A stretch of 64,000 nt of DNA from Candidatus Colwellbacteria bacterium (GTDB lineage: Bacteria; Patescibacteriota; Minisyncoccia; UBA6257; Colwellbacteraceae): contig JACOWZ010000003.1 in the NCBI GenBank assembly GCA_016176525.1, positions 459,357 to 523,356 of the forward strand, read 5' to 3'. The translations under genes were made by a program, and so were the position numbers. How positions within the stretch are numbered: position 1 is the stretch's first letter; each line of letters opens with the position of its first letter. The notes under the pieces are model-generated. The model had not been told where the DNA came from, did not search any database, and saw only the letters and a program-made list of their open reading frames with translations. Of the stretch, positions 8,544 through 40,107 are shown in pieces.

Positions 8544-9950
8544 ATGGATAACAAAAGAGTAAAAGTGAGGTTTGCGCCAAGCCCAACTGGATGGCTGCAT
8601 ATTGGGGGAGCAAGGACCGCGCTATTCAATTGGCTTTTTGCAAAAGCAAATGGCGGTGAGTTTATATTGCGTATAGAAGATACTGACCGTGAACGCTCTA
8701 AAAAAGAATTTGAAGAAGGTATTTTAAGCGGCCTTAAATGGCTTGGTTTAGAGTGGGACGAGCTAATACGCCAGAGCGAGAGGAGAGAGGTGTATAAAGA
8801 ATATTTAGAACAACTAATAGCCTCAAAGGCGGCATATTATTGCTTTTGCACAAAAGAAGAGCTTGAAGGTGCGCGTGAAGGAATGGTGGTAAGCGGCTTA
8901 CCGCCAAAATACTCAGGGCGTTGCCGCGCACTCACGGATGCTGAAATTGAGGGGAAGAAACGTGCTGGCGCAAAAAATGTTATAAGGTTTAAGATGCCGG
9001 AGAAGAAAGTTATATTTAAAGATACAATAAGAGGGACGGTTACGTTTGATGCGGCTCTATTTGGCGACCAGGTTATAGCAAAGAGCTTAATAGAGCCATT
9101 GTATAACTTTGCAAACGTAGTTGATGATTCAGAGATGCAAATAACGCACGTTATAAGAGGGGAGGAACATCTAGCAAACACGCCAAGGCAGATTCTTATT
9201 GCTGAAGCGCTTGGGTTAGCTTCGCCAAGTTTTGCTCACATTCCTCTTATTCTGAACCCAGACAGGAGCAAAATGTCTAAAAGGTTTGCCGATGTTGCGC
9301 TAAAAGATTATATAAGCGGCGGTTATTTGCCTGACGCGATGTTTAATTTTTTGGCCTTTCTTGGATGGCACCCAAGAGAAGACAAAGACATTATGAGCCG
9401 CAATGAATTGGTTAAAGAATTCGAGCTTGAGCGCGTGCAAAAGGCCGGTGCAGTTTTCAATATTGAGAAGTTAAATTGGCTAAATAGCCATTACATAAAT
9501 AGACTCTCAAGTGAGGAATTTACCGAGCTTGCGCAAAAATATTTGCCGGACGACTGGAAGTTTACAAATACAATGGCCGAATCTGTGCGATCACGTGTTA
9601 AAAATCTAGGCGAGGTTAAAGATCTTGCAAGTTTTTATTTTAATTTGCCGAATTATGATAAAGCTATTCTTTTGTGGAAGAAAATGCCCCCAGCGGCAGC
9701 AGAGGCTAATTTAAGCAATATTGCGAAGATTCTAGAAGGCATTGATAATCTTAGTTTTACTAAGGAGAATTTGGAGAAGATTTTAATTGAAAAGACCAAG
9801 GATCTGCCTAAAGGCGAAGTATTCTGGCCGCTTAGAGTAGCTTTGTCTGGTGCGGAGAAATCGCCAACGCCCTTTGAAATAATGGAGGCGCTCGGCAAAA
9901 TTGAAAGTTTAGACAGAATAATGCGTGCTATTAATAAATTAAGGGAATGA
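8544..9950 (+). CDS. gltX: glutamyl-tRNA synthetase
   Basis: class I HIGG (PTGWLHIGG) and KMSKR motifs. Confidence 0.9.
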   Translation: MDNKRVKVRFAPSPTGWLHIGGARTALFNWLFAKANGGEFILRIEDTDRERSKKEFEEGILSGLKWLGLEWDELIRQSERREVYKEYLEQLIASKAAYYCFCTKEELEGAREGMVVSGLPPKYSGRCRALTDAEIEGKKRAGAKNVIRFKMPEKKVIFKDTIRGTVTFDAALFGDQVIAKSLIEPLYNFANVVDDSEMQITHVIRGEEHLANTPRQILIAEALGLASPSFAHIPLILNPDRSKMSKRFADVALKDYISGGYLPDAMFNFLAFLGWHPREDKDIMSRNELVKEFELERVQKAGAVFNIEKLNWLNSHYINRLSSEEFTELAQKYLPDDWKFTNTMAESVRSRVKNLGEVKDLASFYFNLPNYDKAILLWKKMPPAAAEANLSNIAKILEGIDNLSFTKENLEKILIEKTKDLPKGEVFWPLRVALSGAEKSPTPFEIMEALGKIESLDRIMRAINKLRE

Positions 9951-11269
9951 AACGTGTTACATTCATTGCATTATTCATAATAATTGCGCTTTTTGGCAAA
10001 TCTGCTATTACTTTCGCCCAAACCTCTGCTGATGATTTAAGAAACTCAATAAATGAGAAAGTGCGTGAACTTGAGGAGCTTAATGCTCGGATACAAGAAA
10101 CCCAGCAGACTTTAAATCTTGTTGCGGGGCAGAAAAGAACCTTAAGCACTGAAATACGCAGATTTGACCAGACTATAAATCAGCTTAGTTTGAACATTCG
10201 CGCAAGTGAGGTGAATATTGATAAACTCGGGCTTGAACTTGAAAAGCTTGGCATAGAAATTGAAGATATTGAGCGTGGCATAGATTCAAGAAAAGCTTCG
10301 ATTGCAAGCAGTTTGAGACTTATGCAATTGCGCGACAAAGATGGACTTGTTGAAACCGTGTTTAAGTACGATAGTTTGGCAGACGGCTTGGCTGAAGTAC
10401 AGGCGCTAAATGATTTGCGTAACACCTTATCGTTGGATGTTGCGTTTTTAGACTCACTACACAGTGATTTAACCGAGGCGGCACAACTCACACAAGCGAA
10501 AAAGTCGGAAGTTGAGCTGGAGAGAATGAATTTAAGCAAAAGAAAATCTATAGTAGACGACCAGCGCGATGATAAGGCAGTACTTTTAAAGCAAACCCAA
10601 AATAAGGAGAGTGTTTACCAGGCGCAACTTGCAGAGTTAGAGGGTGAGCAGAGGAAGATTGCAGAGGAAATAGACAGAATTGAGAGCGAGTTACGCGCGA
10701 AATTTGATAAGGCGCTGCTACCCACGCCTGCACCTGGGGTTTTAAGCTACCCAATTAAAGATGTGCGCATTACCCAGGGCTATGGTCCGGCGAGTGTGGA
10801 AACAAGGCGTTTTTACAGCAACCACAATGGAATTGATTTTGGCGTGCCAACGGGTACGCCTATTTTCGCGGTTTCGGACGGTTTAGTTATTGCAATGGAC
10901 AACAATGACATTGGCGCATGGAAAAACTATCAATATGGCAGATATGTTCTTATACAGCACGATAATAATCTTTCTAGCCTTTACGCCCACTTATCTGGGT
11001 ATGCTGAAGGCGTTGGTGTGGGCAGTAGAGTAAAAAGAGGACAGGTTATAGGTTATTCTGGCGGGGGCCGTGGGGCATATGGATCTGGAGTTTCGCTTGG
11101 ACCTCATTTGCATTTTACGGTTTATTATTGTGGCACTACAGGTTGGTTGAAGGGCACATCTTTAGATGTGTTGCAAAATTCTAACCTTTGCGGACTTGTG
11201 GCTAACTTTAAAAATGCGGCCGGCAGCGTGCCGATTGGGGCCCACATTGACCCCTCACCTTACCTCTGA
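9947..11269 (+). CDS. M23-family metalloendopeptidase with N-terminal signal peptide and long coiled coil (EnvC/murein hydrolase activator-like)
   Basis: coiled-coil N-terminal half; C-terminal half carries HNGIDF, D..H and HLHF M23 motifs; start overlaps the gltX stop (ATGA). Confidence 0.8.
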   Translation: MKRVTFIALFIIIALFGKSAITFAQTSADDLRNSINEKVRELEELNARIQETQQTLNLVAGQKRTLSTEIRRFDQTINQLSLNIRASEVNIDKLGLELEKLGIEIEDIERGIDSRKASIASSLRLMQLRDKDGLVETVFKYDSLADGLAEVQALNDLRNTLSLDVAFLDSLHSDLTEAAQLTQAKKSEVELERMNLSKRKSIVDDQRDDKAVLLKQTQNKESVYQAQLAELEGEQRKIAEEIDRIESELRAKFDKALLPTPAPGVLSYPIKDVRITQGYGPASVETRRFYSNHNGIDFGVPTGTPIFAVSDGLVIAMDNNDIGAWKNYQYGRYVLIQHDNNLSSLYAHLSGYAEGVGVGSRVKRGQVIGYSGGGRGAYGSGVSLGPHLHFTVYYCGTTGWLKGTSLDVLQNSNLCGLVANFKNAAGSVPIGAHIDPSPYL

Positions 11270-11312: not shown

Positions 11313-11337
11313 GGTTAGTATGGTATAATTTATAAAA

Positions 11338-11487
11338 ATGGAATTTCTCTTTGAGCTTTGGAACGACATAAAAAACTTGTTTGACCCTATTGTCGTAGTT
11401 GTAAAAGGCTTGTTTGCAATCTTAGCCAAGATCTTCTCTTTTTTTGCTAGTTTTATAACAAATCTACTCTCTGGCGGCGGCGCCTAA
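11338..11487 (+). CDS. small hydrophobic protein (49 aa), possibly leaderless
   Basis: ORF MEFLFELWNDIKNLFDPIVVVVKGLFAILAKIFSFFASFITNLLSGGGA; extended -10 TGgTATAAT ends about 9 nt before the ATG; no homology claim. Confidence 0.3.
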   Translation: MEFLFELWNDIKNLFDPIVVVVKGLFAILAKIFSFFASFITNLLSGGGA

Positions 11488-11494
11488 ACTTGGC

Positions 11495-11522
11495 TTGACA
11501 AACTTTTAAAAGAAGGTATAAT
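11495..11522 (+). promoter_or_regulatory. consensus sigma-70-like promoter (TTGACA-N16-TATAAT)
   Basis: exact TTGACA at 11495-11500 and exact TATAAT at 11517-11522; the GC-rich non-coding locus starts 2-7 nt downstream. Confidence 0.7.
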
Positions 11523-11523
11523 A

Positions 11524-12045
11524 GGGGACACTTATAAAGTTCTTTAGTATACCTAATTCGCAGCAGAAAAGAAGAGAGGATAGTATACGAATTACGACAC
11601 TTTGACTAGATAAATGAATTTACGAAATTGTCTTTTCTTTCCTGCTGCGGACAGGTTCTGTCTAGGGCGCATGGGTAACTAATCCCATCGCAAGCATCCT
11701 AGACAGGAATGTTTTTAAGACATCATAGCGAGCCGAGCGCGCTTTGGAGGGTTTCTAGAACTCTCTGGAGAAACAAGTACTCTGGCCTGATGGAATTGCG
11801 GGCTTTTGCGAGCCTGCGAAACCAATATCAAGGGATGTGATGTCGCCTGGGTGAACCGTAACGCCCTTGGTTACCCCAAACCCACGCTCGCGAAAAATTG
11901 CGAGTGTGGGATAGATCTTAATAGCCCCGTGGAGAGTTCTGTCTGTAAGTGCTTGCGCCGTGCATCCCAAATGACGGGCAGGTGGGGGTGCAGACAGACA
12001 GAATATCCCGGGGCACTTTACTTTTTATATAGTGTCAGAAAAGAT
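11524..12045 (+). ncRNA. candidate large structured non-coding RNA (about 520 nt) of unknown class
   Basis: no credible ORF on either strand; visibly higher GC than flanks; many hairpins including G-U pairs that only work on the + strand (GCGGGC/GCCUGC; CGCUCGC/GCGAGUG); 5' end GACACUUAUAAAG can pair with the 3' end CUUUUUAUAUAGUGUC. Confidence 0.5.
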
Positions 12046-12131
12046 ATATTGTGCGACGCTATATATTTTAAAAAGAAGATACTCCCCTGTGCAGATTTAT
12101 ATATTTATATAGGTTTGGTTTTAGCATATAA

Positions 12132-12899
12132 TTGTTTGTAATGCTAAAAAACGGCAATGGTGCAGCCAATTTTAAAGAATCTCACGGATATATTATTGAT
12201 GGAGTTTGGTATCCTAGAGTTACTAGTATTGTAAATATTAAAGCTAAGCCGGCCTTATATCGCTTTTATGGCTCGGTTCAGAGCTTTGCAGAGGGTGAAG
12301 CGATTAAAAACCGCTCTGCCGAAGAAGGCACTCTTATTCACGAAGCTGTGCAGAATTTTATGGTTGGCAAAGCTGTGTCGCCGGACCCGCGCACAGAGCC
12401 CTCTATAAAGGCATTAAAATCGTTTTTAGAGGCAAAGCATATCCAGTTTGTGCCGGAATGGATTGAGAGGCGTATTTTAAGCTTCAAAGAGAGATATGCC
12501 GGCACAATTGACGCACTGGCTTTAATAGACGGCAAATTCGGCGTTTTAGACATTAAAACCTCGCAAGAGATATATCGTGATTTCAATCTGCAAACTGCGG
12601 CTTATTTTGACGCGCTAAACGAAAGTGTTGAAGGACTCCAAACCCGCTGGATTTTACGCATAGACCAAGTACAGATGTGTTTAAGTTGCGGTGCAAAGCG
12701 GCGCATAAAGGGTGGCAGAGAGAAAATTCGCAACAATGGTGTTTATTGTAGGCATAATGAATGGTCGGAGGTTGTAGGCCAAGTTGAGTTAAAGGAATTC
12801 CCCCACTGGGCTGATGATTACCGTGCGTTTTTAGCGGCTAAAAAGTTGTGGGAGTGGGAAAACGAGAATTATTTAAAAGCTATTGGATATTTACGCTAA
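12132..12899 (+). CDS. PD-(D/E)xK nuclease superfamily protein (Cas4/RecB-like)
   Basis: D...D.K core (GTIDALALIDGKFGVLDIKTS) and a C-terminal Cys cluster (CLSC...C). Confidence 0.55.
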   Translation: MFVMLKNGNGAANFKESHGYIIDGVWYPRVTSIVNIKAKPALYRFYGSVQSFAEGEAIKNRSAEEGTLIHEAVQNFMVGKAVSPDPRTEPSIKALKSFLEAKHIQFVPEWIERRILSFKERYAGTIDALALIDGKFGVLDIKTSQEIYRDFNLQTAAYFDALNESVEGLQTRWILRIDQVQMCLSCGAKRRIKGGREKIRNNGVYCRHNEWSEVVGQVELKEFPHWADDYRAFLAAKKLWEWENENYLKAIGYLR

Positions 12900-31737: not shown

Positions 31738-32685
31738 ATGCTTCTAAAAGGAATTGATTTTGGGCCAATCTGCGGCGCATCTGGTGTTCAAGGCTTTTTC
31801 GGCGAGGGGTATTGGTACCATCGCGTGTTAAAACCCGTGGGTCTAGATTTCCGCGGAATGACGTTTGTCGCTAAAACGACTACGCTTAATCCCCGTAAAG
31901 GCAATATGCCGCTTCGCAGAAATTTTACTCCGTGCGAAATCTTGCCGGAGTCAATTGTTGTGCGCCCGCTAAAAGGCATAGCCTTGAATGCAGTTGGGCT
32001 AAGTGGTCCCGGAGCAAAAGCGCTTTTTGAACAACAACTTTGGCAAAGACGCAAAGAGCCGTTCTTTATTTCTTTTATGTCGGTTGCGGAGAACCCGACT
32101 TTAAGAATTGAAGAGCTTGCGGCATTTGTTGAGCTTTTCCATAAGTATTTGCCGCATTTTAAGGCGCCGGTTGGGCTACAGATTAATTATTCTTGCCCGA
32201 ATGTGGGTCTCCATATGGAAGAGCTGGTCCACGAAGTTAAGAGTGGACTAGACATAGCTTTTTCTTTAAAGATCCCCGTCGTGCCGAAGTTTAATCTGAT
32301 GCTTCCCGCCGAAACTGCGGCAGATATTGCAGAGCACCGCGCTTGTGATGCATTGTGTATTTCAAACACAATTCCATGGGGACAATTCCCCGACAGGATT
32401 GATTGGAATACGCTTTTCCCGGGCGGCAAATCCCCTCTCGAGCGCTTTGGCGGAGGCGGCCTTTCTGGCAAGCCGCTGCTTCCGCTTCTTCTTGAGTGGC
32501 TTATTGCCGCGCGTGAATCTGGCTTAAAAAAGCAGATTAACGCCGGGGGTGGCATCTTGTCTCTACGTGATGCGGAGCGTGTTTTTCAGGCAGGGGCAGA
32601 TTCCGTCTTCTTGGGCTCTATTGCTTTTCTGCGCCCTTGGAGGATACGTAAGATTATCTCTGGGATTAATTCACAGAGAGCTTAA
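31738..32685 (+). CDS. dihydroorotate dehydrogenase-family (PyrD-like) flavin oxidoreductase
   Basis: GLSGPG, INYSCPNVG, GGGGLSGKPL and NAGGGILS..DA...GAD.V.LGS blocks in PyrD order; GC visibly above the flanks. Confidence 0.6.
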   Translation: MLLKGIDFGPICGASGVQGFFGEGYWYHRVLKPVGLDFRGMTFVAKTTTLNPRKGNMPLRRNFTPCEILPESIVVRPLKGIALNAVGLSGPGAKALFEQQLWQRRKEPFFISFMSVAENPTLRIEELAAFVELFHKYLPHFKAPVGLQINYSCPNVGLHMEELVHEVKSGLDIAFSLKIPVVPKFNLMLPAETAADIAEHRACDALCISNTIPWGQFPDRIDWNTLFPGGKSPLERFGGGGLSGKPLLPLLLEWLIAARESGLKKQINAGGGILSLRDAERVFQAGADSVFLGSIAFLRPWRIRKIISGINSQRA

Positions 32686-32686
32686 A

Positions 32687-32713
32687 ACGGCATATCTATG
32701 CCGTTTTTTATAT
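32687..32713 (+). terminator. rho-independent terminator of the pyrD-like gene
   Basis: AAACGGCATA-tct-ATGCCGTTT followed by TTTTATAT. Confidence 0.7.
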
Positions 32714-32718
32714 AAAAA

Positions 32719-32752
32719 AAAGCCACTAAGGGTAACCTTAGTGGCGGGTTTG
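32719..32752 (-). terminator. rho-independent terminator for the convergent small-gene trio
   Basis: GCCACTAAGG-ttac-CCTTAGTGGC followed on the - strand by an 8-U run. Confidence 0.7.
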
Positions 32753-36008: not shown

Positions 36009-37535
36009 GAGCTCTTTCAAATCTAGTATTTGGTCGACTCTAATTTGACTTACAAAGTCGGGAACGTGACTTACCAGTATCATCGCGCCATCGTAACGAT
36101 TTAAGGCGTCTGCTATAACCGGAATGTGGCGGAAATTTATGTGGTTGGTTGGTTCGTCCAATATTAAAAGTCCCGGCCGTTGGAGCACAATTTGGGCAAA
36201 AGCCACAAGGCCTTTTTGTCCTTCGGATAGGGCGCCGATTTTGGTTTTTAATATTTCGGCATTTAGCAAAAAACCAGATGCGTGTGAGCGCAACTCTTGT
36301 TCTGTTGCAAAATCAGCCGCGTTTTTGAGCGCATCATAGACGGTTTCTTCAAAGTTAAGAGTGGAGAAGTCTTGTCTGTAATAGCCGATGCGGATCCCCG
36401 AAGCCACATGCTCGCCTTTCGCATGGCCTGTTGCAAGGCGCTCTAAAAGGGTTGTTTTGCCAATTCCGTTTGGTCCCGTGAGAAGCAAGTGGTCTTTCTT
36501 TCGAAGGATAATATTAACCTTCTTTTCAACGTTTTTGTTGTTTTTAACTACTGATACAGATGTAAGCGTGAGCACTTTTGGATCAATCTCACTTTTATCT
36601 TGGGAGGGAATAGTAAACTTTCTTATTGTTTTGTCTTCAACTCTTACGTCCACAATCTCTTCTTCTAGTTCCTCTATTTTCTCCCTCATTTTACGGGCCA
36701 CGTCTCGCATGTGGCCTCCCTTTTGCGCAAAAAAGCCAGCTTGTTCTTTGCGGTGTTGGATGTCTTTCTCTAGGCGCGCATTTTCTCGGTTTTCTTTATC
36801 AATTCTTGCGGCAATCATGCGCACCACGTCGTTATAGTTTCCCTGATATTGCTCAATTTTACGGGTAAAGATCTCCAAATAAATAACGCCGTCGGTAAAA
36901 GAGTTTAAAAAGTTTGCATCGTGCGATATAACTATTACGGTGCCTTTATAGCTTTCTAGAAAGTTAGTTAGATGGGCAATGCCTTCTTTGTCAAGATTGT
37001 TAGTTGGTTCGTCCAACAGTAATAAGTCTGGATTTTGAATAAGGGCCGCGGCAAGAAGCAGTCGCGCTTGCTGCCCGCCGGATAAGCTCTTAACAATTCT
37101 ATCTTTTGATATTTCTAAATTTACCACATCCAATATTTTTTCAATTTTAGGATCAATGTCATAAATTTTTTTAGCGAATTGATTTTCAAAATATTCCCGC
37201 ACAGTTAAATTGCTTTCTCCGCGGGGAATTACTTGTTTTGCTGTTGCAATGGTAAGGCCTTTTTTAATGTGGATTTTCCCAGATTCGGGTTTTCTTGCGC
37301 CTGTTATAAGCTCAAAAATCGTGCTTTTGCCGGCGCCGTTTTGGCCCATAAGCGCAATTTTTGAGCCGTCTTTGATAGAAAAATCTACCTCATTCAGAAT
37401 GGGTTTCAAGTGGCCATATTCGAAGGACGCCTTTTCAAACCTTAATATTGTCTCTCCTGACTTAGGCATAGGGAAGTAGAATACCCTATCGGTGGCTTCT
37501 TTTCCATGGAGGGCGCCGTCCGAATCTGCGTACAT
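36006..37535 (-). CDS. ABC-F family ATPase (ribosome-associated, two ABC domains, no TMD)
   Basis: two Walker A motifs (GQNGAGKST, GPNGIGKTT) and two signatures (LSGGQQ, LSEGQK). Confidence 0.85.
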   Translation of the reverse strand: MYADSDGALHGKEATDRVFYFPMPKSGETILRFEKASFEYGHLKPILNEVDFSIKDGSKIALMGQNGAGKSTIFELITGARKPESGKIHIKKGLTIATAKQVIPRGESNLTVREYFENQFAKKIYDIDPKIEKILDVVNLEISKDRIVKSLSGGQQARLLLAAALIQNPDLLLLDEPTNNLDKEGIAHLTNFLESYKGTVIVISHDANFLNSFTDGVIYLEIFTRKIEQYQGNYNDVVRMIAARIDKENRENARLEKDIQHRKEQAGFFAQKGGHMRDVARKMREKIEELEEEIVDVRVEDKTIRKFTIPSQDKSEIDPKVLTLTSVSVVKNNKNVEKKVNIILRKKDHLLLTGPNGIGKTTLLERLATGHAKGEHVASGIRIGYYRQDFSTLNFEETVYDALKNAADFATEQELRSHASGFLLNAEILKTKIGALSEGQKGLVAFAQIVLQRPGLLILDEPTNHINFRHIPVIADALNRYDGAMILVSHVPDFVSQIRVDQILDLKEL

Positions 37536-38697
37536 GTGGAATACGCTTTCTTGGTAGAGTTAGCATTGCCTCTGTAACACCTGGCAGATCCGGCAGTTTA
37601 GCCACGGGGAGCGTAAGCCGTATAAGCCGCTCAATAACTTTTACATCTCTTTTTTGATCGGGCCGCGCGAATGAAATTGCATGTCCTTTGCCGCCGGCGC
37701 GCCCAGTGCGGCCGATTCTGTGCACATAGTCTTCTGCCATTTGCGGCAAATCATAATTTATAACAAGTTCAATGTTTGTAACATCAATTCCACGCGCGGC
37801 AATGTCTGTTGCCACGAGCACGCGATATTTGCCGTTTTTAAAACCCTGGAGCGCTTCTTTCCGCTGGTTTAGCGATCTATCTGAATGAATTTCGGCGACC
37901 GTTTCGCGCATGGAGCGTACTTTAGAAACAATTCTAGAGACTCCGTGCTTTGTGCGTAAAAATATTAAAACCGAGCCCTTGTATTCTTTTAATATTTTTT
38001 CAAGCAGTTTTGGTTTTGCTTCTTGCGGGATAAAAAACACTTCCTGCGTAACATCTTTCGCGATTGTTCCTTGAGGCGCAATCTCTACTCTAACCGGGAG
38101 TTTCATATACGACCTTGCCATATTTATAATCGCCTCTGGCATGGTTGCCGAAAAAAGCATTGTTTGCCTTTCTTTTGGGAGCGCCGAATTAATTTTTCTA
38201 AGTTGTGGCGCAAAGCCCATATCAAGCATGCGGTCGGCCTCGTCTAGCACCAGAACATTTACTTTATCCAAATAAATGCTTTTTTGTTCAAGGTGGTCGA
38301 TGATTCTCCCTGGCGTTCCGATAACAATGCTCGGGTTTCTATAAATCGCTTTCTTTTGGCGGAAAATCGGTTCGCCGCCTATCAAAGTAGCGGTACGCAC
38401 ACCCAAAGGCTGGCATATTTTCTCGAGTGCTTCGTTTATTTGGAGGGCAAGTTCCCGAGTCGGGGCGATAATTAAGCCCAATCCCTTTTTATTCAAAATA
38501 TATTGGATGAGCGGGATTCCGAAAGCTAGAGTTTTGCCGGTTCCGGTTTGGGCTATGCCCATCAAGTCTTTGCCGTCAATTCCAATAGGGATTGACTGTT
38601 CTTGAATAGGCGTTGGGGTGGTTAATTTAAGTTTTGCGAGAATATCCAAAATAGCGGGCGCGATTCCCAAGCCATAAAAGTTTTTTATGTTTTCCAT
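37486..38697 (-). CDS. DEAD-box ATP-dependent RNA helicase
   Basis: AQTGTGKT, DEAD, SAT and HRIGRTGRAG motifs. Confidence 0.9.
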   Translation of the reverse strand: MENIKNFYGLGIAPAILDILAKLKLTTPTPIQEQSIPIGIDGKDLMGIAQTGTGKTLAFGIPLIQYILNKKGLGLIIAPTRELALQINEALEKICQPLGVRTATLIGGEPIFRQKKAIYRNPSIVIGTPGRIIDHLEQKSIYLDKVNVLVLDEADRMLDMGFAPQLRKINSALPKERQTMLFSATMPEAIINMARSYMKLPVRVEIAPQGTIAKDVTQEVFFIPQEAKPKLLEKILKEYKGSVLIFLRTKHGVSRIVSKVRSMRETVAEIHSDRSLNQRKEALQGFKNGKYRVLVATDIAARGIDVTNIELVINYDLPQMAEDYVHRIGRTGRAGGKGHAISFARPDQKRDVKVIERLIRLTLPVAKLPDLPGVTEAMLTLPRKRIPHVRRFGRRPPWKRSHR

Positions 38698-38717
38698 GTT
38701 CTAATAGTATTGAAAAA

Positions 38718-38745
38718 GTTCAGCTCCGAGGAGGGGTTCGGAGCT
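38718..38745 (-). terminator. hairpin plus U-run between the nuclease gene and the helicase gene (terminator or leader structure)
   Basis: on the - strand AGCUCCGA-accccucc-UCGGAGCU followed by GAACUUUUU. Confidence 0.4.
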
Positions 38746-38922
38746 AATGAAGGGTACCCGGGGCCGCCCAGCGCTAGGTTGGGTGGAGGGTGGGTGGTGG
38801 GCTAAATTAGCCATGCACCAAGCAGCACCCGGGACGGGAGCCATGTGGATTTTAACCACACAATGCTCCCACTTGAGGTCTGTTATGAGCTAAATAAATT
38901 ATACTATAAATAAATACTTTAT

Positions 38923-39672
38923 CTAGGTTCCCGCCTTTTTGGCAGCCTCTCTATATGGGCAATATTCGCAAAGCTCTCCTGCTTTTGGCAAAGAATTTTC
39001 CACAAGGCACTTTTTAATTCTTTGGAGAGTTTCTGGAATCCATGCATCTTTGCAATTGTGTGGGAATACTTGCACGTCAAATTCCAGTTTTTTATCAAAG
39101 GCTTTTCTGTCTGTTTTGCCGTTGACGTAAACAAAATAGCCGATGTCCGCTACTTTAAAACCGTTTTGCCTAAAGAGCCATTGGTATATTTCCATTTGAC
39201 GCTTATATCCTTCTTTCCATCTGCCCTCCATAGTAATCTCTCGCTCGGTAGCAGTAGCCTTGTAGTCTACTATAATTAACTCCCCTTTCGGATTTATCCA
39301 TATATCATCAATTGCCCCGGTTATAAGAAGATTGGTTGGCTTATGCAGATATTGAATTCCTTTAAAGTTGTTGCGCCATACATCCAGCTCCTTGTGCGGA
39401 TACGGTACGGCGTCTATCGCATAGTGTTCCATAAGCGGGTGTTTGGAGCCGTTTGCGCGGTGAATATCAAATTCTTTCTTTAAAAGCGTGTCCACAGCGT
39501 TGTTTAGAGTAAATGCCGGCATTGAGGGCCGCGAAATACCGAGCCTGCGATCAAGATAAAAACAGCGCGGGCATTCGGTGAATAGTTCTATTTTAGAGCG
39601 GCTTAGTTTAAATGGAGATGTGGATTTTGGATCAAATGTAGTTTTATAACGATTATTGCCGTTGTATGCCAT
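38923..39672 (-). CDS. PD-(D/E)xK nuclease with Cys cluster (Cas4/RecB-like)
   Basis: GAIDDIWINPKGELIIVDYKAT core; N-terminal CPRC and C-terminal C...CEYC cysteines. Confidence 0.65.
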   Translation of the reverse strand: MAYNGNNRYKTTFDPKSTSPFKLSRSKIELFTECPRCFYLDRRLGISRPSMPAFTLNNAVDTLLKKEFDIHRANGSKHPLMEHYAIDAVPYPHKELDVWRNNFKGIQYLHKPTNLLITGAIDDIWINPKGELIIVDYKATATEREITMEGRWKEGYKRQMEIYQWLFRQNGFKVADIGYFVYVNGKTDRKAFDKKLEFDVQVFPHNCKDAWIPETLQRIKKCLVENSLPKAGELCEYCPYREAAKKAGT

Positions 39673-39737
39673 AAGACTTTATTTTAACATTGCTTGCGTT
39701 TAATGCATAAATATGGTAAATATAGCGCGCAGGTAAT

Positions 39738-40098
39738 TCAGGTAATAGCTCTGCAAACTTCCGTAATTTTAACCGAAAAGACAGCTCTTTCCAAAGGCGA
39801 GTTTGTAGGGAGGAAAGTCCGGACACCTAGCAACAAGTACAGGTTAACGGCCTGCCGCAGTAATGCGAGAGGTGCGAACAGTGACGCCCCGTGGCGAAAG
39901 CTTATGGGGGAGCCCTATCTCAAGCTAGTCGGCTCAATTCGGTGATAGAGATAAAAAAGCCGAAGTGAAACGTTTCTAAATCCTTACCGGGTGCAAGACC
40001 GTGCTCCGATAAACATCGGAGAGAGTCGCTAGAGCCCGCGAGTAATCTCGGGCCCAGATAAATTGTTGCCAAATACAGAATCCGGCTTATGAATTACC
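39738..40098 (+). ncRNA. rnpB: RNase P RNA (bacterial type A)
   Basis: GGAGGAAAGUCCGGAC (P4 5' strand), ACAGAAUCCGGCUUA (P4 3' strand), P1 pairing AGGUAAUUCA/UGAAUUACCU. Confidence 0.85.
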
Positions 40099-40107
40099 TG
40101 CATATAA

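What the first reader, a model, noticed from the sequence alone, without database searches (positions are those of the whole stretch)
11495..12045. Consensus promoter driving a roughly 520-nt GC-rich, ORF-free, highly structured locus (candidate large ncRNA of unknown class)
A textbook TTGACA-N16-TATAAT promoter at 11495-11522 is followed by about 520 nt with no credible ORF on either strand; the two tracked ORFs here are overlapping, antisense and low-complexity. GC is visibly higher than the flanks, as structural RNAs are in AT-rich genomes. Hairpins are dense and some need G-U pairs that only exist on the + strand. The 5' and 3' ends can pair, closing the molecule. It is not RNase P RNA; that gene is at 39738-40098. 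I tried to fit tmRNA and found no tag ORF ending in a hydrophobic A-A stop, no T-arm GGUUCGA and no CCA-adjacent acceptor. Length and ornate structure leave open a ROOL/GOLLD-like large ncRNA or a lineage-specific RNA. A Cas4-like nuclease gene starts about 90 nt downstream.
Basis: partly seen in the sequence, partly recalled or inferred. Interest (0 to 1): 0.7.

Follow-up and report, generated by a model that had tools for sequence, protein, structure and literature searches.

The report
Orphan 510-nt structured RNA gene
A tiny-genome groundwater bacterium (Candidatus Colwellbacteria) carries a roughly 510-base, protein-free, strongly folded RNA gene behind a perfect promoter, which matches no known RNA family and has no relative in any collection searched, so it is a real but unconfirmed candidate for a new RNA.

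Summary
TTGACA-N16-TATAAT at 11495-11522 is the only perfect sigma-70 consensus in the 64 kb (0.02 expected). It abuts the most over-folded stretch of the window (MFE -210 kcal/mol, z -9.1). That stretch is GC-enriched and has no credible ORF. A 13-bp helix joins its 5' end (11527-11539) to 12023-12036.

No Rfam 15 family matches, even at E<=10. ARAGORN finds no tRNA, intron-containing tRNA or tmRNA. A six-frame translation finds no protein homologue.

New here: the host is a Candidatus Colwellbacteria MAG. In most of the 80 related genomes the M23 peptidase gene lies within about 100 nt of the PD-(D/E)XK nuclease gene, and none of the wider gaps resembles this sequence. In relatives that carry a small ORF there, a conserved palindrome follows it within about 3-60 nt. 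Here about 545 nt (11488-12032), promoter included, sit between the two. It is therefore a lineage-specific insertion.

No homologue turned up in syntenic loci, metagenomes, viral contigs, phages or plasmids. Covariation cannot be tested.

Best reading: a self-contained gene for an abundant structured ncRNA of unknown class (confidence about 0.5). Rivals are a selfish-element remnant, a leader of the nuclease gene, and neutral hairpin-rich DNA.

The parts
11495..11522 (+). Perfect sigma-70-type promoter, TTGACA-N16-TATAAT. The predicted start is about 11528-11530.
   Evidence: 12/12 match. Unique in 64 kb with 0.02 expected. Best of all sites in the window.
11527..11539 (+). 5' strand of closing helix P0 (GACACUUAUAAAG). 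It begins at the predicted transcription start.
   Evidence: Pairs with 12023-12036 in the MFE and centroid structures of 11527-12037.
11552..11655 (+). Arm H1: a long AU-rich hairpin with 26 predicted pairs.
   Evidence: Mean pair probability 0.91. z -5.6. Inverted repeat I1.
11656..11708 (+). Arm H2: stem UCUGUCUAGG/CCUAGACAGG with an inner AUGGG/CCCAU hairpin.
   Evidence: Pair probability 0.97-0.99. z -4.9.
11719..11844 (+). Domain H3: a branched domain closed by GACAUCAU/GUGAUGUC. It holds H3a (11742-11770) and H3b (11789-11829).
   Evidence: Pair probabilities 0.73-0.95. z -3.4 for the domain and -4.4 for H3b.
11845..11877 (+). Arm H4: a weak hairpin and the least certain part.
   Evidence: Pair probability 0.73. 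z only -1.4.
11881..11910 (+). Arm H5: an uninterrupted 13-bp hairpin that includes G-U pairs.
   Evidence: Pair probability 0.97. z -7.4.
11924..12014 (+). Arm H6: a 33-pair GC-rich hairpin. It is followed by the U-rich tract 12017-12026 and so looks like a terminator.
   Evidence: Pair probability 0.98. z -6.4. The sequence ACTTTACTTTTT follows the stem.
12023..12036 (+). 3' strand of closing helix P0 (UUUUAUA-U-AGUGUC). It overlaps the U tract and the first 4 nt of the palindrome.
11338..11487 (+). Left boundary (context): a small hydrophobic ORF of 49 aa that also follows the M23 gene in several relatives.
   Evidence: Gene called in L111. Positional homologues in L003, L011, L063, L067 and L070 at 20-31% identity.
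12033..12058 (.). Right boundary (context): a conserved operator-like palindrome, TGTCAGAAAAGATATATTGTGCGACG.
   Evidence: Found in 50 of 80 related loci, as a single copy in nearly all of them, and once in the window.
12141..12899 (+). Downstream PD-(D/E)XK nuclease gene (context), with its own promoter at 12104-12132.

Best explanation
The locus is a self-contained gene for a stable non-coding RNA of about 500-510 nt.

Proposed workings:
- RNA polymerase starts at about 11528-11530 from the strongest promoter in the window.
- The transcript folds into six hairpin arms or domains (H1-H6) around a central loop.
- A terminal helix between its first 13 nt and 12023-12036 can close that loop.
- Transcription ends at or just after the U-rich tract that follows H6.

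The cassette (promoter plus RNA, about 545 nt, 11488-12032) was gained in this Colwellbacteria lineage. It lies between a small ORF and a conserved palindrome that sit within about 3-60 nt of each other in the relatives that carry both.

I infer that the RNA acts in trans as an abundant structural or scaffold RNA, either with a protein partner or as an RNA-only assembly. I do not think it acts as a messenger or a cis leader.

Shown: the promoter match, the lack of coding capacity, the exceptional fold, the end pairing, the insertion status, and the absence from known families.

Inferred: transcription, the 3' end, stability, and trans action.
For: The perfect promoter is unique in the window.

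The fold is the top-ranked 500-nt window on the + strand of the window, with z -8.9 to -9.1. Each major arm is individually significant.

The closing helix begins at the predicted start site.

The + strand has 24 G-U pairs against 10 on the minus strand, and a lower energy.

GC is 0.53 in the core against 0.42 for the genome, comparable with the RNase P RNA gene at 0.49.

There is no ORF and no protein homologue.

The nuclease keeps its own palindrome and promoter downstream.

The sequence is identical in three independent assemblies.

Genes annotated by Pfam from about 4.6 to 20 kb are housekeeping, apart from a few short ORFs with no hit. None encodes a reverse transcriptase, transposase, integrase or Cas protein.
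Against: There is no expression data.

No homologue exists in any searched collection, so there is no covariation and no evidence of purifying selection.

The arms are long, near-perfect hairpins. Known ornate RNAs instead have short helices with conserved junctions, so this pattern also fits young or neutral inverted duplications.

The strand asymmetry in folding energy (-32.6 kcal/mol) is only about 1.5 sd from the window's mean, because the + strand is G-rich throughout.

The closing helix and termination at the U tract are mutually exclusive as drawn.
Confidence: 0.5

Rival explanations
1. The locus is a remnant or non-autonomous copy of a selfish element, MITE-like or otherwise invasive, that landed in a variable intergenic spacer. 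On this reading the terminal complementarity is a pair of inverted terminal repeats rather than an RNA helix, and the transcript has no host function.
For: It is a lineage-specific insertion of about 0.5 kb. The ends are 13-bp inverted repeats. GC is higher than the host's. The same spacer holds unrelated insertions in other genomes: L006 (a small ORF), L025, L036 and L062. No relative of the sequence exists in other species.
Against: No target-site duplication flanks the inverted ends, by direct reading. The promoter lies outside those ends yet inside the inserted segment. No second copy exists in 64 kb. No transposase or integrase gene lies nearby. The interior is six separate hairpins, not two mirrored halves. 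G-U pairs favour one strand.
Confidence: 0.15
2. The locus is neutral, hairpin-rich non-coding DNA built by local inverted and direct duplications or by template switching. It happens to carry a consensus promoter and is transcribed or not without consequence.
For: The hairpins are long and near-perfect. There are internal short repeats: GTTCTGTCT twice, and TTGCGAG-containing repeats (D4 and D7). There is no conservation anywhere.
Against: The joint occurrence of three features is unlikely by chance: the only perfect promoter in 64 kb (0.02 expected), the most over-folded segment, and a closing helix that starts at the predicted +1. Patescibacterial genomes are highly reduced (PMC13011429), so half a kilobase of neutral spacer would be unusual. 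The 24 G-U pairs against one A-C 1x1 mismatch in the + fold argue for selection at the RNA level.
Confidence: 0.12
3. The locus is a long structured 5' leader, or a second upstream promoter, for the PD-(D/E)XK nuclease gene. The strong promoter reads through H6 and the palindrome into the nuclease, and the folded leader controls stability or translation.
For: Same strand as the nuclease and only about 105 nt upstream of it. The U tract after H6 is interrupted, and the scan did not call it a terminator. Another gene in the window, the DEAD-box helicase, has a roughly 190-nt structured GC-rich leader.
Against: The nuclease keeps its own near-consensus promoter at 12104-12132, whose -10 ends 8 nt before the ATG, and its conserved palindrome. 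None of the syntenic relatives examined has a comparable leader. The RNA closes on itself before the palindrome.
Confidence: 0.1
4. The locus is an extremely divergent copy of a known RNA (tmRNA, 6S, SRP RNA, or a group I or II intron) that covariance models miss.
For: Patescibacteria are reported to hold group I introns too divergent for RF00028 (PMC13011429). This genome's own RNase P RNA scores only 125 bits and carries large insertions.
Against: No family reaches more than chance scores, even when only 391-951 nt are searched. The best group I score is 11.5 bits against a 50-bit threshold, and it falls on the AU-rich arm. ARAGORN finds nothing at its default threshold or at 90% of it, with introns allowed; only implausible calls appear at 80%. 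There is no TTCRA T-loop motif and no tag frame. The locus has its own promoter and lies between genes, not inside a tRNA, rRNA or coding sequence.
Confidence: 0.05

Closest known systems
ROOL, GOLLD and OLE RNAs (large ornate bacterial ncRNAs of unknown biochemical function; reported to form RNA-only homo-oligomers, PMC12286853)
   Same: A stand-alone, ORF-free, strongly folded bacterial RNA of several hundred nucleotides, with no obvious partner gene.
   Different: No covariance-model match of any strength. Different phylum. Built of a few long near-perfect hairpins rather than many short helices with conserved junctions. Seen in one species only, so nothing is known about conservation.
tmRNA (ssrA)
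   Same: Similar size class, with 5' and 3' ends that pair.
   Different: No tRNA-like domain, no T-loop and no tag reading frame. ARAGORN and Rfam are negative.
Divergent group I introns of Patescibacteria (PMC13011429)
   Same: The same phylum is known for structured RNA insertions that standard models miss.
   Different: Those introns sit inside tRNA or rRNA genes and have no promoter of their own. This locus lies between protein genes, has its own promoter and no exon halves, and shows only a chance-level RF00028 score.
Closed stable RNAs such as RNase P RNA and 6S RNA
   Same: A terminal helix joins the two ends. GC is enriched relative to the genome.
   Different: The genuine RNase P RNA is at 39730-40104. 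6S RNA is a single rod of about 180-200 nt with a central bubble (from established knowledge), whereas this RNA is about 510 nt and multi-armed. No model match.
MITEs and other non-autonomous insertion elements
   Same: About 0.5 kb, lineage-specific, with inverted termini, inserted in a variable spacer.
   Different: No target-site duplication, no second copy in 64 kb, a promoter outside the inverted ends, and a strand-biased G-U content.

Membership tests
tmRNA (RF00023 and clan) | tRNA-like domain: a 7-bp acceptor stem, a T-arm with a GGUUCGA-type loop, and a 3' end next to CCA. | tested here: not met
   ARAGORN finds no tmRNA at its default threshold on the window or the region. Only an implausible permuted call, running into the nuclease gene, appears at 80% threshold. 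No TTCRA motif occurs in 11488-12140 (read).
tmRNA (RF00023 and clan) | Covariance-model score and a tag ORF ending in hydrophobic residues. | tested here: not met
   No tmRNA-clan hit at E<=10 in searches of 951 nt or 391 nt.
ROOL / GOLLD / OLE / HEARO / raiA (Rfam large ncRNAs) | A match to the family covariance model at or near the gathering score. | tested here: not met
   These families are absent from all hit lists.
Group I intron (RF00028) | Catalytic core P3-P9, detected by the covariance model. | tested here: not met
   The best score is 11.5 bits against a gathering score of 50. It covers only 11495-11654, which is the promoter plus the AU-rich arm. Caveat: PMC13011429 reports patescibacterial introns that this model misses.
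Group I intron (RF00028) | Interrupts a host gene, with tRNA, rRNA or CDS exon halves on both sides. | tested here: not met
   ARAGORN with introns allowed finds no tRNA at its default threshold or at 90% of it; only implausible calls appear at 80%. The flanks are a complete small ORF and a conserved palindrome. The locus has its own promoter.
Group II intron (RF00029 and D1-D4 models) | Domain V hairpin and a covariance-model match. | tested here: not met
   No hit. PMC13011429 reports none in Patescibacteria.
6S RNA | A single rod of about 180-200 nt with a central bubble, plus a covariance-model match. | tested here: not met
   No hit. The predicted fold is a six-armed structure of about 510 nt.
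RNase P RNA | A match to RF00010 or RF00011. | tested here: not met
   The real gene is at 39730-40104 with 125 bits. Nothing is found at this locus.
MITE / non-autonomous transposable element | Terminal inverted repeats. | tested here: inconclusive
   A 13-bp terminal complementarity exists, but it is equally an RNA closing helix.
MITE / non-autonomous transposable element | Target-site duplication and multiple genomic copies. | tested here: not met
   No duplication abuts the ends (read). No second copy occurs in 64 kb. The rest of the genome could not be searched.
Protein-coding gene or pseudogene | An open frame with homologues. | tested here: not met
Conserved structured RNA class (any) | Homologues with compensatory base changes. 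| not testable with these tools
   No homologue was found. The three available copies are identical.

The most novel reading that the evidence does not exclude
This is the founding member of a previously unseen class of large, end-closed, multi-armed RNA in CPR/Patescibacteria. On this reading it is a highly expressed RNA that a genome-reduced symbiont acquired and keeps because it forms a functional particle, for example an RNA-only or RNA-protein assembly. Its relatives would be too divergent or too rarely sampled to be found by sequence.
Probability: 0.2. Interest if true: 0.7.

Novelty: new variant of a known kind. Interest (0 to 1): 0.45.

Why it matters
Patescibacterial genomes are highly reduced (PMC13011429), and in most relatives examined this particular spacer is only tens of bases long. 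Half a kilobase of non-coding DNA behind the best promoter in 64 kb is therefore unlikely to be idle.

If the RNA is expressed and functional, it would add a large structured RNA from a phylum for which my literature searches found none described. It would also be a compact, well-delimited target for structure probing or cryo-EM.

If it proves to be a selfish or neutral insertion, it shows how hairpin-rich DNA with a strong promoter can arise in a streamlined genome, and it marks the M23-nuclease spacer as an insertion hot spot.

Tried and rejected
Known RNA families and tRNA-like genes:
- tmRNA, and tRNA with a group I intron. ARAGORN found nothing at its default threshold, with introns allowed, or at 90% threshold, and gave only implausible calls at 80%. 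Rfam searches were negative. The idea came from PMC13011429.
- TIGR arrays, CRISPR-like arrays and ToxI-like tandem repeats: no repeat array is present.
- Diversity-generating retroelement template: no variable-repeat-like copy in the window and no reverse transcriptase among the Pfam-annotated neighbouring genes.

Repeat and element ideas:
- A cluster of REP-like palindromes. The TGTCGCAAAA...TTGCGACA palindrome turned out to be present as a single copy in nearly all loci that carry it, and it looks like an operator, not a dispersed repeat.
- CsrB-like sponge: GGA motifs are not enriched. This was a manual count only.
- Two long-range complementarities (I10 and I11) are no more than chance would give for a 500-nt RNA, by my own estimate.

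Homologue hunts that found nothing:
- nhmmer against the 80 syntenic loci, including with maximum sensitivity.
- A covariance model of H5-H6 searched against 566 kb of held sequence.
- blastn against phages and plasmids.
- Six-frame 'spurious ORF' search against 5.8 billion proteins.
- Two metagenome pattern scans. The first had 0 hits. The second had 11 hits with no similarity beyond the 18-mer.
- Five viral scans.

Closest relatives of the species:
- The closest nuclease is 79% identical but sits on a 957-nt contig. The closest M23 proteins are 49% and 44% identical, on contigs that end about 40 nt after the gene. Neither reaches the region of interest.
- Three assemblies of the same species are identical, so they give no variation to analyse.

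Full report
WHAT IS THERE. On the + strand the order of features is as follows.
- The M23 peptidase gene (9947-11269), followed by a hairpin.
- A 49-aa hydrophobic ORF (11338-11487).
- A perfect TTGACA-N16-TATAAT promoter (11495-11522).
- About 510 nt of ORF-free, GC-enriched, strongly folding sequence (11527-12036).
- A 26-nt palindrome (12033-12058).
- A second promoter (12104-12132).
- A PD-(D/E)XK nuclease gene (12141-12899).

CHECK OF THE OBSERVATION.
- Promoter. It is the only exact consensus match in 64 kb on either strand, with 0.02 expected, and the best-scoring site in the window. Three of the five 11/12 sites fall in gaps between called ORFs, so this organism appears to use the consensus.
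- Fold. The + strand of 11524-12030 folds to -204.3 kcal/mol, z -8.9 against dinucleotide shuffles. The minus strand gives -171.7, z -5.9. I folded 500-nt windows tiled every 250 nt across the 64 kb and regressed energy on GC. The two windows covering this locus rank first and second on the + strand.
- Single arms. Individual arms are significant on their own: H1 z -5.6, H2 -4.9, H3b -4.4, H5 -7.4, H6 -6.4. H4 is weak at -1.4.
- G-U pairs. The + fold has 24 G-U pairs among 166, and the minus fold has 10.
- GC. It is 0.505-0.555 at 11700-11999, against 0.417 for the window.
- End pairing. Folding 11527-12037 yields a 13-bp closing helix with one bulge, 11527-11539 with 12023-12036, in both the MFE and centroid structures, z -9.1. 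The helix begins at the position where transcription should start, 5-8 nt after the -10 hexamer.
- Assembly. The locus is identical in contigs assembled from three sequencing runs, so it is not an assembly artefact.
One caution applies. The strand difference in folding energy is only about 1.5 sd from the window average, because the + strand is G-rich throughout. Strand assignment therefore rests mainly on the promoter and the G-U count.

NOT CODING. All six frames carry 7-13 stops under code 11, and code 4 does not rescue a frame. The longest ORF (111 aa, 11806-12141) runs through the U tract, the palindrome and the nuclease promoter. A concatenated six-frame translation found nothing at E<=10 among 5.8 billion proteins.

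NOT A KNOWN RNA.
- Rfam 15 at gathering thresholds finds RNase P RNA (39730-40104) and two tRNAs in the window, and nothing here.
- At E<=10 on 951 nt and on 391 nt, only chance-level hairpin matches to eukaryotic microRNA and snoRNA models appear. The group I intron model scores 11.5 bits against a 50-bit threshold, on the AU-rich arm.
- ARAGORN finds no tRNA or tmRNA at its default threshold or at 90% of it, even with introns allowed. Only at 80% threshold does it give implausible calls.
- A 2026 paper shows that Patescibacteria hold group I introns too divergent for RF00028, but those introns interrupt tRNA genes (PMC13011429). This locus has no exon halves, lies between protein genes, and has its own promoter.

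ORGANISM AND COMPARATIVE CONTEXT. The nuclease is 100% identical to a protein of a Candidatus Colwellbacteria MAG. I fetched 80 syntenic loci from other Patescibacteria species.
- In most of them the M23 gene lies within about 100 nt of the nuclease gene. In a minority there is a short hydrophobic ORF between the two, followed by the palindrome.
- In those relatives the palindrome follows the small ORF's stop within about 3-60 nt. Here 545 nt separate them (11488-12032). The promoter and the RNA together therefore form a lineage-specific insertion.
- The palindrome (consensus TGTCGCAAAA-N6-TTGTGCGACA) occurs in 50 of 80 loci, as a single copy in nearly all of them, and once in the window. It usually lies just upstream of M23 or of the nuclease. 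It behaves like an operator, not a dispersed repeat.
- Other genomes carry unrelated insertions in the same spacer: L006 encodes a small ORF, and L025, L036 and L062 differ again. The spacer is a hot spot for insertions.
- Genes annotated by Pfam between about 4.6 and 20 kb are housekeeping: FtsW, MurG, GltX, M23, a methyltransferase, PEBP, acylphosphatase, archease, L27, L9, an S41 peptidase, deformylase and formyltransferase. None encodes a reverse transcriptase, transposase, integrase or Cas protein.

NO HOMOLOGUE ANYWHERE. The following all found nothing beyond the sequence itself.
- nhmmer against the 80 loci, also at maximum sensitivity.
- A covariance model of H5-H6 searched over 566 kb.
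- blastn against phage and plasmid collections.
- Two metagenome scans and five viral scans.
The species is poorly sampled. The next-closest nuclease is 79% identical but sits on a 957-nt contig. The next-closest M23 proteins are 49% and 44% identical, on contigs that stop about 40 nt after the gene. Covariation, the decisive test for a structured RNA, therefore cannot be run.

ANATOMY.
- P0: closing helix, 13 bp.
- H1 (11552-11655): AU-rich, 26 pairs.
- H2 (11656-11708).
- H3 (11719-11844): a branched domain with H3a and H3b.
- H4 (11845-11877): weak.
- H5 (11881-11910): 13 uninterrupted pairs.
- H6 (11924-12014): 33 pairs with a GC-rich base, followed by ACUUUACUUUUU.
H2 and H6 share the stem sequence UUCUGUCU/AGACAG. 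H3b and H5 share UUGCGAG. This hints at growth by internal duplication. As drawn, P0 uses the U tract, so termination right after H6 and closure by P0 exclude each other. The 3' end is therefore uncertain, between about 12025 and 12036.

MECHANISM AND RIVALS. My best reading, at confidence about 0.5, is a self-contained, strongly transcribed gene for a stable, end-closed, multi-armed ncRNA that acts in trans as a structural or scaffold RNA. The promoter match, the fold, the end pairing and the insertion status are shown. Expression, stability and trans action are inferred. The rivals are these.
- A selfish-element remnant whose inverted ends mimic a closing helix (0.15). Against it: no target duplication, no second copy in 64 kb, and a promoter that lies outside the inverted ends.
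- Neutral hairpin-rich DNA (0.12). Against it: the coincidence of the unique promoter, the top-ranked fold and the helix at +1, plus the excess of G-U over A-C.
- A leader for the nuclease gene (0.10). Against it: the nuclease's own promoter and palindrome, and the absence of such a leader in relatives.
- A very divergent known RNA (0.05).

COMPARISON AND NOVELTY. In kind, the locus resembles the orphan large bacterial RNAs ROOL, GOLLD and OLE. Like them it is long, ORF-free, strongly folded and of unknown function. It fails the only available membership test for each of them and for tmRNA, 6S, RNase P and group I/II introns. I file it as a new variant of a known kind, namely a stand-alone large structured ncRNA with no family. 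Claiming a new class would need homologues and expression data. Interest is moderate (0.45): the locus is real, clean and unexplained in a streamlined genome, but it rests on one sequence from one species.

Noticed in passing
window 12033-12058; L003-L082 (for example L036 2452-2477, L062 2590-2695, L071 1185-1294): A 26-nt palindrome with consensus TGTCGCAAAA-N6-TTGTGCGACA occurs in 50 of 80 Patescibacteria loci, as a single copy in nearly all of them, and once in the window. It lies just upstream of the M23 peptidase gene or of the PD-(D/E)XK nuclease gene. It looks like the operator of an unidentified regulator. L062 and L071 carry three copies in a row.
   Followed up: partly
window 11338-11487: A small hydrophobic ORF (49 aa) follows the M23 gene. 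It has an extended -10-like TGGTATAAT upstream at about 11322-11330. Positional homologues at 20-31% identity occur in several relatives. It was called as a gene in one Logan assembly (L111) but not in another (L001).
   Followed up: partly
window 38698-38925 (- strand): A GC-rich, strongly folding stretch of about 190-230 nt (z -5.0) lies between a 10/12 promoter (38925-38898) and the start of a DEAD-box helicase gene (37486-38697). It has no Rfam match and is probably a structured 5' leader.
   Followed up: partly
L006 2413-2936; L025 2343-3000; L036 2423-3000; L062 2284-3000: The M23-nuclease spacer holds unrelated lineage-specific insertions in other genomes. L006 has a small ORF beginning MSLRVLLGYSQKDF. 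L025 has a folded 282-nt GC-rich stretch (z -3.9). The spacer appears to be an insertion hot spot.
   Followed up: partly
window 12104-12143: The -10 hexamer of the nuclease promoter ends 8 nt before the ATG, so the nuclease mRNA would be leaderless or nearly so. Relatives show the same arrangement, for example L070.
   Followed up: no
window 39730-40104: The RNase P RNA (bacterial type A) scores only 125 bits and carries an insertion of about 38 nt in the first hairpin after P1. This shows how divergent this lineage's known RNAs are.
   Followed up: no
window 38923-39672 (- strand): A second PD-(D/E)XK nuclease superfamily gene (249 aa, PF12705, E 6.6e-17) lies immediately upstream of the RNase P RNA gene.
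   Followed up: no
L108 3152-3187; L109 2747-2787; L110 6273-6311: Three contigs from the closest M23 relatives all end about 40 nt after the M23 stop codon, in AT-rich sequence with GATTTA/GAATTAT-like repeats. Assembly seems to break at this spacer in those organisms.
   Followed up: no
window 32001-32750 (+): This is the second most over-folded 500-nt stretch of the window after GC correction (z -2.9). It lies inside ORF 31738-32685 and has no Rfam hit.
   Followed up: no
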